Below, piece after piece: positions 60,340-63,163 of a stretch of DNA of 64,000 nucleotides. This stretch comes from a virus (taxonomy: Duplodnaviria > Heunggongvirae > Uroviricota > Caudoviricetes). The notes under the pieces were generated by a model that was not told the origin of the DNA, did no database searches, and saw only the letters and a program-made list of their open reading frames with translations. The translations under genes were made by a program, and so were the position numbers. The DNA is taken from positions 30,773 through 94,772 of the IMG/VR virus record IMGVR_UViG_3300042349_000541; one strand, 5' to 3'. The number at the start of each line of letters is the position of its first letter. Positions within the stretch are counted from its first letter, which is position 1.

Positions 60340-61028
60340 TGAAAATTGATTGGACATTGATTAAAAACGCAGATGTTTACACTTTTGCTCACGGCCTTAC
60401 ATCCGGGCGATCTTTGTATCGCTTGTATGTAAACACAGAGGCTGGCGGGCAAGTAAGAAATCTTGTGCGTCAGGGTGTTGAAAGAGCTAGAGTGTTAGCT
60501 AAAAAGACTCTACGCAGAAGGATGTTAAAAGGATCATTTACTTTAACCGATGTATAGTTTAAGTGGTGCAGAACATGGTGGGAATCCATCAAAGTAGCGG
60601 TTCGAGTCCGCCAAATCGACCAAAAGTAAGTAAAAGAGATAGAGAAAGATTATCTAGATTAGATAGAAAGATACATAAACTTAAAGAATGTATGAAATTT
60701 GCTAAGAATTGTAACCTTCCTTTTTCAAGATATGAAACCTCTATATTTAAATTTGATATACAAAGAAAACTACTAAGAAATAAAATGAAGGGCTATGCTA
60801 ACAAAACATAAAACTAAAAAGAAAAAGCTTCGGGAAAAATCTGTATATCAAAAAGTCCTAAAAAGACGGCAGAAGATTCGGGAAGATAACAGGTTAAAAT
60901 ATGTTTTAGGAAAACTTGCAAAGGAAACTGAAAAGTTGTCTGCTCCTAAAACTACACTAAGAAAATATAAAGTGGAATTGCTTGAAGAACGTAAAACAAT
61001 TCCTGAAAACGAAGAAAAAAATAGTTGA
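60339..61028 (+). other. Three small basic ORFs
   Basis: 60339-60557, 60563-60811 and 60795-61028; the last two are very Lys/Arg-rich. Confidence 0.55.
60548..60622 (+). pseudogene. Degenerate tRNA-like element with collapsed anticodon loop and encoded CCA
   Basis: D arm GTTT-AAGTGGTGC-AGAAC, TGGTGG-GAAT-CCATCA, GCGG-TTCGAGT-CCGC, ends ACCA; acceptor has 2 mismatches. Confidence 0.5.
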
Positions 61029-61133
61029 CAAATCAAATCTGTAAACTATAATAAAACAAAACAGGGATGAATGAAAAAGATTAACTTAATTTTATCAAGA
61101 AAAATTCTTTTTCAACTTTTTGCCCGTTTTTAT

Positions 61134-61251
61134 TGTGAGATAGCTTAATGGTAGAGCACGTAAAACTCTTGTATACTTTTTTACTATGTACGATAATACA
61201 AGATTAACCAATGCTAATGGCGTTGTGTAGGTTCGATTCCTACTCTCACAG
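61134..61251 (+). ncRNA. Y-RNA/YrlA-like tRNA mimic 1
   Basis: TGTGAGA/TCTCACA acceptor, canonical D and T arms; anticodon arm replaced by a long helix with loop TTTTTTACTATGTACG. Confidence 0.75.
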
Positions 61252-61446
61252 CTATTGATTTTAGTAGGTGAAAAAGTATAGAATTATTTAATTAGTTTAT
61301 GCAAGTGACAAAATTAAATAGTACCAAATAGCATACTTTAGATGTTTTATTCAGGTTTTACATTAGTCTTGCAGCTAGTATAATCGGGATAAATACTATC
61401 ACTAATGAAGGCTTTCAGAAATTTGGTCACGACTACTAAAAACAAT

Positions 61447-61562
61447 CCGCCTATGTTGTAATGGTAGCACAATAACTCAAGCATTGTTTTTTACTATGTA
61501 CGTTTGATGTTTGATTAACTTTTTGGTGTAAAGCGGTCTAGGTTCGATTCCTAGTAGGCGGG
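61447..61562 (+). ncRNA. Y-RNA/YrlA-like tRNA mimic 2
   Basis: CCGCCTA/TAGGCGG acceptor, CTAGG-TTCGATT-CCTAG T arm, same insert architecture and identical 16-nt loop. Confidence 0.75.
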
Positions 61563-61588
61563 CTACTTTTATTTACTGGAGAAATATT

Positions 61589-63163
61589 ATGACTTTTAAG
61601 TATCTGAATCAAAAAACTTCTGTTCAAAATCCTATCGTCGGTCGCAAGGAAATGGTTCAAACCAACGGCGGCGGTTACGCTTTCAAGATTGACGATCTTC
61701 AAATTCTTGACAGATTTTTGAGTCTTGGAGCTACTTCCGGTACTTATTATATGTCGAAAGAAAAAGTACAGTATACCAATACTGAAAATATTGTTTCGTG
61801 CGTTCAGTCTGCTCCTAATGAAACATTAAATAGAATCGTTGAAGTTTCCAGTAAGGGTCTTGCACATAAGAACGATCATGCTATTTATGCACTTGCGTTA
61901 GTTTTTGTTCATGGAGATAACTCTGTAAAAACTAGGGCCGTTGTAGAATTTAACAAGATTGTACGAACTGCTACTCACTTGTTTATGTTTTGTGCATTTA
62001 TTAAAGAGATGCGTGGTTTTGGTAAGCTTGTACGTCAAGCGATTAACAATTGGTATGTATCAAAAGATACTAAGTCTTTTGCATATCAGGTTTCTAAGTA
62101 TCAACAACGTGAAGGTTGGTCTCACAAAGACGTATTTTGCCTGACTCACCCAAAGTTTGGTAAGACCACTAATATGAATAAGATTGCTAAGTGGGCTATG
62201 GGTAATTTGGATACTTCCAACCTAAAGCCTTCCGATGAAGGACTTGTTCTGTGTAAAGCAGTTGATGATGCAAAACACATCAAAAATGCTAAAGAATTAG
62301 TAGATCATATCTCGAATTATAAACTACAGAGAGAACATATTCCTACTGAATTTTTGAATAAGCCCGAGATTCAAGAAGCTTTGCTTCCGCATATGAACGC
62401 TACGGCACTTATCAGAAGTCTTTCGGTAATGACTGCTAGCGGGCTTATCTCGCCACTGTCTAAATCAACAAAGTATATTGTCGGCAGGCTAAATGATAAG
62501 GATTGGCTTAGAGGTCAAAGAATTCATCCACTTTCTATTCTAGTCGCAAATAGAATCTATGGGCAAGGCAGAGGAATGAAAGGTTCACTTACTTGGAATA
62601 CAGATAGAAATATTTTGGACGCACTAGAAAATGCTTTCTATAATGCTTTTGACGCTATCCAGCCTACTAATAAGAATTATATGTACGGAATTGATGTTTC
62701 GGGTTCGATGAGTTCCCATTTTAACGATACGCCATTGCGGTTCTGCGAGGTTGCAGCCGTTCTAGCGATGGCTCATGTGCGCACAGAGCCTTGGACATTC
62801 GTTGGCGGTTTTGCGAGCGGTTTTGTAGATTTAGGAATATCCTCCAAGGATACATTGAAGTCTGCTACTGAAAAATGCCTTAAGAATAATTTCGGATCGA
62901 CTAATCCTTCCGCAGTTCTTTCTTATGCCAAGCAAAATAAAATGGATGTTGATTGTTTCATAATTATCACAGATAACGAAGTTAATTCTGGTAATCACGT
63001 TTCGTCCGAACTTAAATCCAACTTCCCTAAGTCCAAGATGATTGTTTGCGGGCTTGCGGTAAATAACTTTAGCATTGCAGATCCTAAAAATCCTAACATG
63101 CTAGATATCGCTGGATTTTCCCCGGAAATCACTTCCGCTATTTCTTCGTTCGCACGCTCTTGA
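61589..63163 (+). CDS. rsr: Ro60/TROVE-domain RNA-binding protein (Rsr orthologue) with VWA domain
   Basis: NGGGYAF, LDRFLSLG, RTATHLF, KYQQREGWSHKD, TALIRSL, RIHP and MIDAS IDVSGSM. Confidence 0.93.
   Translation: MTFKYLNQKTSVQNPIVGRKEMVQTNGGGYAFKIDDLQILDRFLSLGATSGTYYMSKEKVQYTNTENIVSCVQSAPNETLNRIVEVSSKGLAHKNDHAIYALALVFVHGDNSVKTRAVVEFNKIVRTATHLFMFCAFIKEMRGFGKLVRQAINNWYVSKDTKSFAYQVSKYQQREGWSHKDVFCLTHPKFGKTTNMNKIAKWAMGNLDTSNLKPSDEGLVLCKAVDDAKHIKNAKELVDHISNYKLQREHIPTEFLNKPEIQEALLPHMNATALIRSLSVMTASGLISPLSKSTKYIVGRLNDKDWLRGQRIHPLSILVANRIYGQGRGMKGSLTWNTDRNILDALENAFYNAFDAIQPTNKNYMYGIDVSGSMSSHFNDTPLRFCEVAAVLAMAHVRTEPWTFVGGFASGFVDLGISSKDTLKSATEKCLKNNFGSTNPSAVLSYAKQNKMDVDCFIIITDNEVNSGNHVSSELKSNFPKSKMIVCGLAVNNFSIADPKNPNMLDIAGFSPEITSAISSFARS

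What the first reader, a model, noticed from the sequence alone, without database searches (positions are those of the whole stretch)
61025..63163. Phage Ro60 locus with two dedicated tRNA-mimic RNAs: candidate new Ro60-Y RNA system
Seen: promoter TTGACA-N16-TATAAT at 61025, two 116-118 nt RNAs (61134-61251, 61447-61562) with 7-bp acceptor stems, D-like arms and T arms (TTCGATT loop) but no normal anticodon arm, then a complete Ro60/TROVE+VWA gene starting 26 nt after the second RNA. Established: bacterial Ro60 (Rsr) binds Y RNAs, including tRNA-mimicking YrlA, and is often linked to RtcB RNA repair and PNPase. Inference: these are the cognate Y RNAs, and the phage encodes its own RoRNP, possibly to counter tRNA/RNA-cleaving defences or redirect RNA decay.
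Basis: partly seen in the sequence, partly recalled or inferred. Interest (0 to 1): 0.92.

Follow-up and report, generated by a model that had tools for sequence, protein, structure and literature searches.

The report
tRNA-shaped Y RNAs beside phage Ro60
An uncultured 169-kb phage carries one promoter-to-terminator unit holding a Ro60 gene and three partner (Y) RNAs, two built like ordinary tRNAs whose anticodon arm is replaced by the Ro60 docking helix; phage Ro60-Y RNA pairs are known, but I found no description of this tRNA-like wiring in the papers I could read.

Summary
There is a 12/12 sigma-70-type promoter (61025-61052), two tRNA-shaped RNAs (61134-61251 and 61447-61562), a full-length Ro60 gene (61589-63163) and a terminator (63188-63210).

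The RNAs are very probably Ro60 partner (Y) RNAs.
- Their long arm carries a one-base-bulged helix ending in CGA, like the Ro60 site of animal Y RNAs, bacterial YrlA and Thermus phage phiLo Yrl RNAs.
- The junction motifs (UAAAAC ... UUAAC, V arm, T arm) match those of a mycobacteriophage YrlA.
- A covariance model built from them finds full-length relatives, on the Ro60 strand, beside Ro60 genes only 35-54% identical: in at least 30 of 80 viral loci and about 35 of 80 bacterial loci. All helices covary.

They are not YrlA members as defined. The order is that of a tRNA (open 7-bp acceptor stem, loop-closed Ro arm), which is a circular permutation of YrlA, and Rfam YrlA does not match.

New here: the 75-nt leader (about 61059-61133) is a third Y-like RNA with the classical wiring.

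No binding or expression data could be obtained, and the function is inferred. This scan has already reported the same wiring on other DNA. Verdict: a new variant of a known kind.

The parts
61025..61052 (+). Sigma-70-type promoter TTGACA-N16-TATAAT. The transcription start is inferred at about 61059.
   Evidence: 12/12 consensus match. Conserved in relatives L001-L003, L005 and L006.
61059..61133 (+). Leader: a third Y-like RNA with classical (YrlB-like) wiring. Layout: 5' AAAC[A]GGG-A-U-GA-AU-GAAAAAG-AUUAAC-loop-CUUUUUC-AAC-UUUUUG-CCC-GUUU 3'. Its ends pair with each other. RNase P cutting at 61133/61134 would form its 3' end.
   Evidence: Folds as stem-bulge-stem, -13.8 kcal/mol, z = -2.2. 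The inner stem shows compensatory changes: GAAAAAG/CUUUUUC here, GAAAAGGG/CCCCUUUUC and GAAAAAGC/GCUUUUUC in L005/L006. It matches the classical Ro-module descriptor, which hits the Ro60 strand 76 times against 5 on the other strand in viral loci. The ends are inferred.
61134..61251 (+). RNA1, a tRNA-shaped Y RNA (118 nt).
- Acceptor stem 61134-61140 / 61244-61250; D arm 61143-61157.
- Linker CGUAAAAC.
- Outer arm stem 61167-61174 / 61196-61203.
- Ro module 61175-61195: UU-U-AC[UAU]GU-A-(C61191)-GA.
- Junction UUAAC 61204-61208.
- V hairpin 61209-61225; T arm 61227-61243.
   Evidence: Rfam tRNA 46.1 bits with a 60-nt insert. Fold -29.9 kcal/mol, z = -2.75. Model R1 128.5 bits. Arm parse. U8, A14, A15:U48 and T loop UUCGAUU are present.
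61252..61446 (+). About 195-nt spacer found only in this genome. It contains a promoter-like site TTTACA-N16-TATAAT at 61357-61384, which could drive RNA2 and Ro60 separately.
   Evidence: Absent from L001, L002 (Ro60 96% identical) and L003, where RNA1 and RNA2 are 3 nt apart. No other copy in the genome or in fetched loci. Promoter-like site 11/12.
61447..61562 (+). RNA2, a tRNA-shaped Y RNA (116 nt).
- Acceptor stem 61447-61453 / 61555-61561; D stem UUGU/ACAA.
- Outer arm stem 61477-61486 / 61505-61514 (10 bp).
- Ro module 61487-61504: UU-U-AC[UAU]GU-A-(C61501)-GU, i.e. GU instead of GA.
- Junction UUAAC 61515-61519.
- T arm CUAGG-UUCGAUU-CCUAG.
   Evidence: Model R1 114.9 bits. Alignment with RNA1 shows compensatory stems and an identical 16-nt core. 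Arm parse. No Rfam hit at E <= 10.
61589..63163 (+). Ro60 (Rsr) orthologue, 524 aa: TROVE ring plus vWA domain. The MIDAS DxSxS motif (DVSGSM) is present. A GGAG ribosome-binding site lies 8 nt upstream.
   Evidence: Pfam TROVE 3.2e-33 and vWA_Ro60 3.7e-36. PHROG 850, RNA-binding protein, 9.5e-58. 1YVP 7e-83, human RO60 4e-81, D. radiodurans Rsr 1e-73. D369, S371 and S373 are invariant among 26 homologues.
63188..63220 (+). Intrinsic terminator that closes the unit.
   Evidence: 9-bp stem with 5 G-C pairs, followed by TTATTTTTTT.

Best explanation
This is a self-contained phage Ro60 ribonucleoprotein operon. One promoter drives, in order: a small classical Y-like RNA (the leader), two tRNA-shaped Y RNAs, and the Ro60 mRNA. 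An intrinsic terminator ends the unit.

What the sequence shows:
- Each tRNA-shaped RNA keeps the acceptor stem, D arm, T arm and the tertiary-contact bases of a real tRNA.
- In place of the anticodon arm it has a long arm: an outer stem of 8-10 bp, an internal loop, then a short helix with a one-base bulge followed by GA.
- This equals the bulged Ro60-binding helix of animal Y RNAs and the CGAA motif of YrlA and phiLo Yrl RNAs.

Inferred steps:
- Host RNase P and 3'-end enzymes cut the tRNA-shaped units out of the transcript, as they do the phage's 11 tRNAs. This also frees the leader RNA and the Ro60 mRNA.
- The host CCA-adding enzyme may extend the RNAs, because none of the phage tRNAs encodes CCA.
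- Ro60 binds the bulged helix on its outer surface, and the tRNA-like elbow recruits a host tRNA- or RNA-handling factor.
- By analogy with Deinococcus Rsr-Yrn1 and phage phiLo Ro60-Yrl, the most likely target is host PNPase and RNA decay or quality control during infection.

Relative to YrlA the RNA is circularly permuted: YrlA has its ends in the Ro helix and a closed acceptor hairpin, whereas here the acceptor is open and the Ro helix is capped by a loop.
For: - Ro60 is a full-length orthologue.
- RNA1 and RNA2 share AAC-[stem]-UUUUUUACUAUGUACG-[stem]-GAUUAAC, with fully compensated stems.
- Relatives with Ro60 at 83% and 63% identity carry 2 and 3 such RNAs at the same place.
- Model R1 finds full-length 115-140-nt matches on the Ro60 strand in at least 30 of 80 IMG/VR Ro60 loci and about 35 of 80 bacterial loci.
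- On the 39-sequence alignment 95% of cells are paired and 26 of 27 pairs change on both sides. The covariation score is 0.80, against 0.22 for shuffles and 0.11-0.16 for slid partners. All 8 pairs of the outer arm stem covary.
- The tRNA core is kept: U8 in 33/34, A14 in 33/34, and the Levitt pair is 14 A:U plus 14 G:C of 34.
- The family-wide arm consensus is ..ACUU-X-[stem]..[stem']-X'-(C/U)-GA.., with X-X' as G-C, A-U or U-A.
- Descriptor hits strongly favour the Ro60 strand: 76:5 and 23:3 in viral loci, 44:1 and 14:3 in bacterial loci.
- Specificity: the only long matches in the 168.8-kb genome and in five other whole phage records lie beside Ro60.
- The YrlA of Mycobacterium phage ScottMcG has the same junctions: D arm-CUUAAAC-stem, and GGCCGA..stem-UUACC-V-T.
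- Literature: the Ro60 site is a helix with a single bulged C (PMC4726728). The CGAA motif is bound by phage Ro60, with PNPase attenuation (PMC12135203). YrlA mimics tRNA, and M. smegmatis YrlA is cut by RNase P and receives CCA (PMC4201824, 10.1101/312249).
Against: - There is no expression, processing or binding evidence for this phage.
- The window clade departs from the published GNCGAA(N)G motif: GUACGA in RNA1 and GUACGU in RNA2.
- Its apical helix is only 3 bp, so binding strength is uncertain, especially for RNA2.
- Rfam YrlA and Y_RNA give no match.
- The alignment used for the covariation counts was fitted to the model, which inflates pairing.
- The effector (PNPase or another factor) and the biological role are analogy only.
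- The leader model rests on about 4 distinct sequences from one clade.
Confidence: 0.82

Rival explanations
1. They are real decoding tRNA genes interrupted by a short intron or expansion in the anticodon arm. Removal of the insert would yield functional tRNAs, and their position next to Ro60 is incidental.
For: RNA1 scores 46 bits on the Rfam tRNA model end to end. The tRNA tertiary core is intact. The V hairpin of RNA1 (CCA-AUGCUAA-UGG) has a 7-nt loop shaped like an anticodon loop. The phage carries 11 ordinary tRNAs.
Against: - ARAGORN calls neither RNA, and RNA2 fails the tRNA model.
- No 5-bp/7-nt anticodon arm can be rebuilt by deleting the arm.
- The insert is conserved in structure and motif (bulge plus GA) across loci whose Ro60 is only 35-54% identical, which is not how introns behave.
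- Bacterial tRNA introns are group I elements of more than 200 nt (established knowledge).
- Long-armed copies occur only beside Ro60.
Confidence: 0.04
2. The structures act mainly in cis as a 5' leader of the Ro60 mRNA. Ro60 would bind the bulged helices in its own transcript to control processing, stability or translation, rather than forming free Y RNPs.
For: All three RNAs lie in the same transcription unit, upstream of Ro60. RNA2 ends 26 nt before the start codon. In most related loci the RNAs are also upstream on the same strand.
Against: - Open 7-bp acceptor stems and intact T arms make them RNase P and 3'-end substrates, so they should be released.
- In some loci they lie downstream of Ro60 (L054, L082, L121, L129).
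- Known Y RNAs next to rsr are stable trans-acting RNAs (PMC4201824, PMC12135203).
- This reading does not exclude the main one.
Confidence: 0.08
3. They are tRNA decoys that act without Ro60. For example, they could soak up host anticodon nucleases, tRNA-modifying enzymes or tRNA-sensing defence proteins, and only share an operon with Ro60.
For: They are faithful tRNA elbow mimics without an anticodon. Phage tRNA arrays are thought to counter tRNA-targeting defences (established knowledge). An authentic-looking tRNA, b7a-tRNA, is reported with other partners in RNA-repair loci (cited in 10.1101/312249).
Against: The most conserved, covarying part outside the tRNA core is exactly the Ro60-type bulged helix. 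The RNAs are confined to Ro60 neighbourhoods.
Confidence: 0.06

Closest known systems
YrlA (Y RNA-like A; Rfam RF02553; Salmonella, M. smegmatis, mycobacteriophages; Chen et al. 2014 PMC4201824; Wang et al. 2018, 10.1101/312249)
   Same: - It is encoded beside Ro60 on the same strand.
- It has a tRNA-like D arm, T arm and V arm, with the Levitt-pair covariation.
- The Ro60 arm leaves from the anticodon-stem position.
- The junction motifs are shared: D arm-UAAAC-stem, and CGA...stem-UUAYC-V-T. I saw these directly in Mycobacterium phage ScottMcG.
   Different: - The wiring is circularly permuted. YrlA runs Ro strand-V-T-closed acceptor hairpin-D-Ro strand. Here the order is acceptor-D-Ro arm (loop-closed)-V-T-acceptor, with a free 7-bp acceptor stem.
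- Rfam YrlA finds ScottMcG and Magritte at 36 bits but nothing here at E <= 10.
- The window clade has UACGA rather than GNCGAA.
Thermus phage phiLo Ro60 with Yrl1/Yrl2 (PMC12135203, 2025)
   Same: It is a phage-encoded Ro60 with Y-like RNAs directly upstream of the gene. The RNAs have a stem-bulge-stem with a CGA(A) motif. This is the only phage system with binding data and an effect on host PNPase, and I use it as the functional analogy.
   Different: The phiLo Yrls are described as plain hairpins without a tRNA body. The phiLo Ro60 is too divergent to appear in my PDB sequence search. No experiment exists for the present phage.
Animal Y RNAs and D. radiodurans Yrn1
   Same: The Ro60 site is a helix with a single bulged pyrimidine next to G-U and A-U pairs. 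The human hY1 strands UUGAC / GUC(C)GA are from my own knowledge; the bulged cytidine is stated in PMC4726728. In the wider family found here both strands are recognisable (ACUUG-CC ... GG-C(C)GA).
   Different: In those RNAs the Ro helix is formed by the RNA's own 5' and 3' ends. In Yrn1 it occupies the acceptor position (PMC4201824). Here it is an internal, loop-capped arm.
YrlB-type small Y RNAs (Salmonella, M. smegmatis, mycobacteriophages)
   Same: The leader at 61059-61133 has paired ends, a bulge plus GA, an inner stem, UUAAC and no tRNA body. The two small Y-like RNAs flanking the YrlA of ScottMcG look the same.
   Different: There is no sequence similarity beyond the motifs. It is defined here from one clade only.
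b7a-tRNA (band-7-associated tRNA-like RNA; Burroughs and Aravind 2016, as cited in 10.1101/312249)
   Same: It is reported as an RNA that strongly resembles an authentic, unpermuted tRNA, lies in RNA-repair neighbourhoods and is occasionally next to Rsr.
   Different: The paper is not in the library, so its anatomy could not be compared, in particular whether it has a Ro-type arm. No band-7 gene was seen here.

Membership tests
Ro60 / Rsr protein (TROVE + vWA) | TROVE (HEAT-repeat ring) domain followed by a Ro60-type vWA domain | tested here: met
   Pfam PF05731 3.2e-33 and PF25045 3.7e-36, both above their cut-offs.
Ro60 / Rsr protein (TROVE + vWA) | Full-length similarity to Ro60 proteins of solved structure | tested here: met
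   1YVP 7e-83 (residues 21-521), human RO60 4e-81, D. radiodurans Rsr 1e-73.
Ro60 / Rsr protein (TROVE + vWA) | MIDAS motif DxSxS in the vWA domain | tested here: met
   DVSGSM is present. D369, S371 and S373 are invariant in 26 homologues.
Y RNA (RNA partner of Ro60) | Encoded close to Ro60 on the same strand | tested here: met
   All three RNAs lie within 530 nt upstream in one transcription unit. The same holds in related loci.
Y RNA (RNA partner of Ro60) | Helix with a single bulged nucleotide and a CGA(A)-type motif | tested here: met
   RNA1 has GU-A-(C)-GA opposite UU-U-AC, and the leader has GGG-A-U-GA opposite UUUUUG-CCC. RNA2 has GU in place of GA, a weaker match.
Y RNA (RNA partner of Ro60) | Physical binding to Ro60 | not testable with these tools
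   Needs EMSA or immunoprecipitation.
Y RNA (RNA partner of Ro60) | Accumulates as a discrete small RNA | not testable with these tools
YrlA (Rfam RF02553) | tRNA-like D and T arms with tRNA tertiary contacts | tested here: met
   U8, A14, G18G19, A15:U48 and T loop UUCGAUU are present. Across the family the Levitt pair is 14 A:U and 14 G:C of 34.
YrlA (Rfam RF02553) | Permuted order (T arm, closed acceptor-like hairpin, D arm), with the RNA ends in the Ro60 helix | tested here: not met
   The order is acceptor-D-arm-V-T-acceptor. The 5' and 3' acceptor strands of each unit pair with each other, not with the neighbouring unit.
YrlA (Rfam RF02553) | Match to the Rfam covariance model | tested here: not met
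   No hit at E <= 10 in 60900-61700. As a positive control, ScottMcG and Magritte YrlAs score 36 bits, themselves below the gathering score of 69.
YrlA (Rfam RF02553) | GNCGAA(N)G motif on the strand leading to the V and T arms | tested here: inconclusive
   The window clade has GUACGAU or GUACGUU in the equivalent place. Distant members of the same tRNA-order family have GGUCGAAUGG, GGCCGAAG and GGGCCGAAGG.
Canonical tRNA | 5-bp anticodon stem with a 7-nt loop, and detection by tRNA finders | tested here: not met
   ARAGORN calls neither RNA. The Rfam tRNA model needs a 60-nt insertion for RNA1 and misses RNA2.
b7a-tRNA (Burroughs and Aravind 2016) | Authentic-looking tRNA associated with a band-7 protein and RtcB | not tested
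   The paper is not held. The genome has no RtcB.

The most novel reading that the evidence does not exclude
The tRNA-order Y RNAs are the ancestral form from which the permuted YrlA arose. The route would be tandem copies, such as the abutting RNA1-RNA2 pair, followed by a shift of the transcript ends. Because they keep a free 7-bp acceptor stem, they would be matured like tRNAs (RNase P, 3' trimming, CCA addition) and could even be charged. The phage Ro60 particle would then present a true tRNA end to host factors such as EF-Tu, synthetases, the CCA enzyme, tRNA-sensing defence proteins and PNPase. That would make it a tRNA decoy or tether rather than only an RNA-decay adaptor.
Probability: 0.25. 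Interest if true: 0.72.

Novelty: new variant of a known kind. Interest (0 to 1): 0.55.

Why it matters
Ro60-Y RNA particles are conserved from bacteria to humans, where Ro60 is a major autoantigen. What the tRNA-like part of bacterial Y RNAs does, and how Y RNAs arose from tRNAs, are still open questions.

A large and apparently undescribed class of Y RNAs with normal tRNA wiring and a free acceptor end offers three things:
- a plausible evolutionary link between tRNAs and YrlA;
- compact constructs of about 117 nt, with natural variants of the docking helix, for binding and structural work;
- a reason to ask whether some Y RNAs receive CCA or are charged.

This operon holds both wirings (the leader, and RNA1/RNA2) together with the protein in 2.2 kb. 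It could be expressed as one piece in a laboratory host.

There is also a practical point for annotation. Such RNAs are missed by ARAGORN and by Rfam YrlA, or are mislabelled as tRNAs.

Tried and rejected
- Rfam scans of the window at gathering threshold, and of 60900-61700 at E <= 10, found no YrlA or Y_RNA match. Only tRNA matched, and only RNA1.
- ARAGORN called no gene at either RNA.
- blastn of the locus against 50,697 phage records found nothing. The portal protein has only a 22%-identity hit to Clostridium phage Amboise, so host and taxon remain unknown.
- tRNA with an intron was rejected; see the rival explanations.
- The idea that the RNAs are a tandem array of permuted YrlAs read in the wrong register was rejected. 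The acceptor strands pair within each unit (UGUGAGA/UCUCACA and CCGCCUA/UAGGCGG), not between units, and in this genome 195 nt separate the units.
- The idea that the 195-nt spacer is a repeat or mobile element found no support: there is no second copy in the genome or in any fetched locus.
- Genome-wide search for repair partners: RtcB, the CCA-adding enzyme (PolyA_pol) and Rnl1 gave no match, although the Rnl1 control search also found nothing anywhere. A PF09414 RNA ligase (genome 119365-119970) and an AAA_33 kinase (154147-154539) exist but are not linked to this locus.
- Literature: Sim et al. 2020 (Annual Review) and Burroughs and Aravind 2016 are not in the library. 'Not described' therefore means not found in the papers I could read.
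- My first motif regex for the Ro module was too loose (37 of 51 real sequences against 23 of 51 shuffled). I replaced it with a stricter descriptor that uses the opposite strand as control.
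Full report
**What is there**

The window lies in a complete 168.8-kb phage genome with direct terminal repeats (36% GC, 11 tRNAs). It has no close cultured relative.

At 61025-61052 there is a perfect TTGACA-N16-TATAAT promoter. RNA1 (61134-61251) and RNA2 (61447-61562) follow. A 524-aa ORF (61589-63163) starts 26 nt after RNA2, and an intrinsic terminator lies at 63188-63210.

The ORF is a full-length Ro60. It has Pfam TROVE and vWA_Ro60 domains, matches X. laevis Ro60 at E = 7e-83, and keeps the MIDAS DxSxS motif.

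RNA1 matches the Rfam tRNA model end to end, but with a 60-nt insertion in the anticodon arm. RNA2 matches no Rfam family, and ARAGORN calls neither RNA.

**Anatomy of the two RNAs**

Both have the following parts in this order:
- a 7-bp acceptor stem;
- U8;
- a D arm with the G18G19 loop;
- a single-stranded linker ending in AAC;
- a long arm;
- the motif (G)AUUAAC;
- a V region;
- a perfect T arm (loop UUCGAUU);
- the 3' acceptor strand.

In the arm, an outer stem of 8 bp (RNA1) or 10 bp (RNA2) encloses the invariant UUUUUUACUAUGUACG. The two copies differ throughout the acceptor, D and outer stems by compensatory changes.

Inside the arm, UAC/GUA form a 3-bp hairpin. The next C (61191 / 61501) is bulged. 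The following GA (GU in RNA2) faces UU.

**Relatives**

- Two IMG/VR phages with 96%-identical Ro60 have RNA1 and RNA2 only 3 nt apart. The roughly 195 nt between them here are a private insertion. It carries an 11/12 promoter-like site and has no other copy.
- Contigs with Ro60 at 83% and 63% identity carry two and three such RNAs at the same position.
- A covariance model built from these seven sequences finds full-length matches of 115-140 nt, always on the Ro60 strand. It does so in at least 30 of 80 viral Ro60 loci (Ro60 35-54% identical) and about 35 of 80 bacterial or MAG loci from many phyla.
- In this genome and in five other whole phage records, every long match lies beside Ro60. The remaining matches are ordinary tRNAs of 72-83 nt.

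**Structure support**

On the 39-sequence model alignment, 95% of cells are paired and 26 of 27 pairs change on both sides. The covariation score is 0.80, against 0.22 for shuffles and 0.11-0.16 for slid partners. All eight pairs of the outer arm stem covary. One caveat: the alignment was fitted to the model.

The tRNA tertiary core is kept. U8 and A14 are present in 33 of 34 sequences, and the Levitt pair is A15:U48 in 14 and G15:C48 in 14.

**Why these are Y RNAs**

Across the family the arm reads (A)ACUU-X-[stem] ... [stem']-X'-(C or U)-GA(A). X-X' is G-C in most members, A-U in five and U-A in the window clade.

This is a helix with a single bulged pyrimidine next to G-U and A-U pairs. Three known Ro60 sites look like this:
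- the Ro60 site of animal Y RNAs, described as a helix with a single bulged cytidine (PMC4726728); the human strands UUGAC / GUC(C)GA are from my own knowledge;
- the GNCGAA(N)G motif of YrlA (PMC4201824);
- the CGAA motif that phage phiLo Ro60 binds (PMC12135203).

A strict descriptor of the module hits the Ro60 strand far more often than the opposite strand of the same loci:

| Loci | Classical wiring (Ro60 strand : other strand) | tRNA wiring (Ro60 strand : other strand) |
|---|---|---|
| Viral | 76 : 5 | 23 : 3 |
| Bacterial | 44 : 1 | 14 : 3 |

The published type of YrlA, read directly in Mycobacterium phage ScottMcG, shows the same junctions: D arm-CUUAAAC-stem, and GGCCGA...stem-UUACC-V-T arm. 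The spacing from the motif to UUAYC is the same as in RNA1.

**Why they are not YrlA members**

YrlA is wired as Ro strand-V-T-closed acceptor hairpin-D-Ro strand (PMC4201824; 10.1101/312249). Here the acceptor is open and the Ro arm is capped by a loop, which is a circular permutation of YrlA.

Rfam YrlA (RF02553) detects the ScottMcG and Magritte YrlAs at 36 bits. It finds nothing in the window at E <= 10.

**A third RNA**

The leader (about 61059-61133) folds with its ends paired (AAAC[A]GGG / CCCGUUU). It also has a bulge followed by GA, an inner stem GAAAAAG/CUUUUUC, and AUUAAC directly after the 5' strand of that stem. This is the classical, YrlB-like wiring.

The inner stem changes in a compensatory way in L005/L006: GAAAAGGG/CCCCUUUUC and GAAAAAGC/GCUUUUUC. 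A second such leader precedes the middle RNA of L005. The window leader also matches the classical descriptor.

Its ends are inferred. The 5' end follows from the promoter, and the 3' end from RNase P cutting at RNA1.

**Mechanism**

Shown by sequence:
- one promoter-to-terminator unit;
- tRNA-grade acceptor and T arms;
- a Ro60-type docking helix;
- none of the 11 phage tRNAs encodes CCA.

Inferred:
- Host RNase P and 3'-end enzymes release the RNAs and the Ro60 mRNA.
- Ro60 binds the bulged helix.
- The tRNA elbow recruits a host factor.

By analogy with Deinococcus and phiLo, the factor is most likely PNPase, so the particle would modulate RNA decay during infection. The genome has no RtcB, which makes an RtcB-linked repair role less likely here. 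An unlinked RNA ligase and a kinase do exist.

**Novelty**

Phage Ro60 with Y RNAs is known. The tRNA-order wiring was not described in any paper I could read, but two key papers were not available. One of them describes b7a-tRNA, an authentic-looking tRNA sometimes found next to Rsr.

This scan has already reported the same wiring on other DNA several times and noted this same stretch once. I reached the reading independently and tested it on my own loci.

Specific to this window are four things: both wirings in one operon, the U-A / UACGA variant of the docking helix, the weakened RNA2 site (GU), and the private spacer with an internal promoter-like site.

Noticed in passing
window 27998-28073 (+): Rfam Twister-sister ribozyme (RF02681) match at 46.4 bits, above the gathering score of 34, E = 3.6e-07, inside this phage genome.
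   Followed up: no
window 15563-18703 (-): A 1046-aa ORF matches terminase large subunit PHROGs only in residues about 48-200. Residues about 190-470 match helicase and endonuclease PHROGs. It may be a terminase with an inserted or fused nuclease module, or an intein.
   Followed up: no
L088 (Microbacterium phage Magritte, OR553905.1) 1937-2013: The GenBank feature 'tRNA-Arg(tct)' overlaps a permuted YrlA (Rfam RF02553, 1945-2071, 36.6 bits). The 'anticodon arm' is probably the Y RNA's V hairpin with loop CUUCUAA, so the tRNA call is likely an annotation artefact.
   Followed up: partly
window 61209-61225, and V regions of L005, L011, L023, L035, L065, L080, L081: In one subfamily the V arm is a covarying 3-4-bp stem (CCA/UGG, CCG/CGG, UCGC/GCGA) with a 7-nt loop CUNNUAA shaped like an anticodon loop. 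A second subfamily instead has a ...GGAAC...GGUCG V region and a G15:C48 pair. It is unresolved whether this hairpin is a vestigial anticodon arm.
   Followed up: partly
window 63221-63691 (+): A conserved 156-aa lysine-rich ORF lies directly after the Ro60 terminator. It has a weak RuvA_C/UBA-like C-terminal match (E = 0.0011, below the cut-off) and is syntenic in L003 and L005. A promoter-like TTGACA-N16-TAAAAT (63160-63187) overlaps the Ro60 stop codon.
   Followed up: no
L087 (Mycobacterium phage ScottMcG) 2078-2150 and 2345-2425: Two unannotated small Y-like RNAs without a tRNA body flank the YrlA upstream of the Ro gene. They read GCAGGCCGAUUCGCAUCGGUUACC... and GGAGGCCGAAGGCUCGUCGGUUAUC..., and both end in CAUGUCU plus the complement of their 5' end.
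   Followed up: no
window 33661-33734 and 55943-56443: The phage tRNA set includes tRNA-Ile(UAU) and two different tRNA-Arg(UCU) genes 350 nt apart. No phage tRNA encodes CCA.
   Followed up: no
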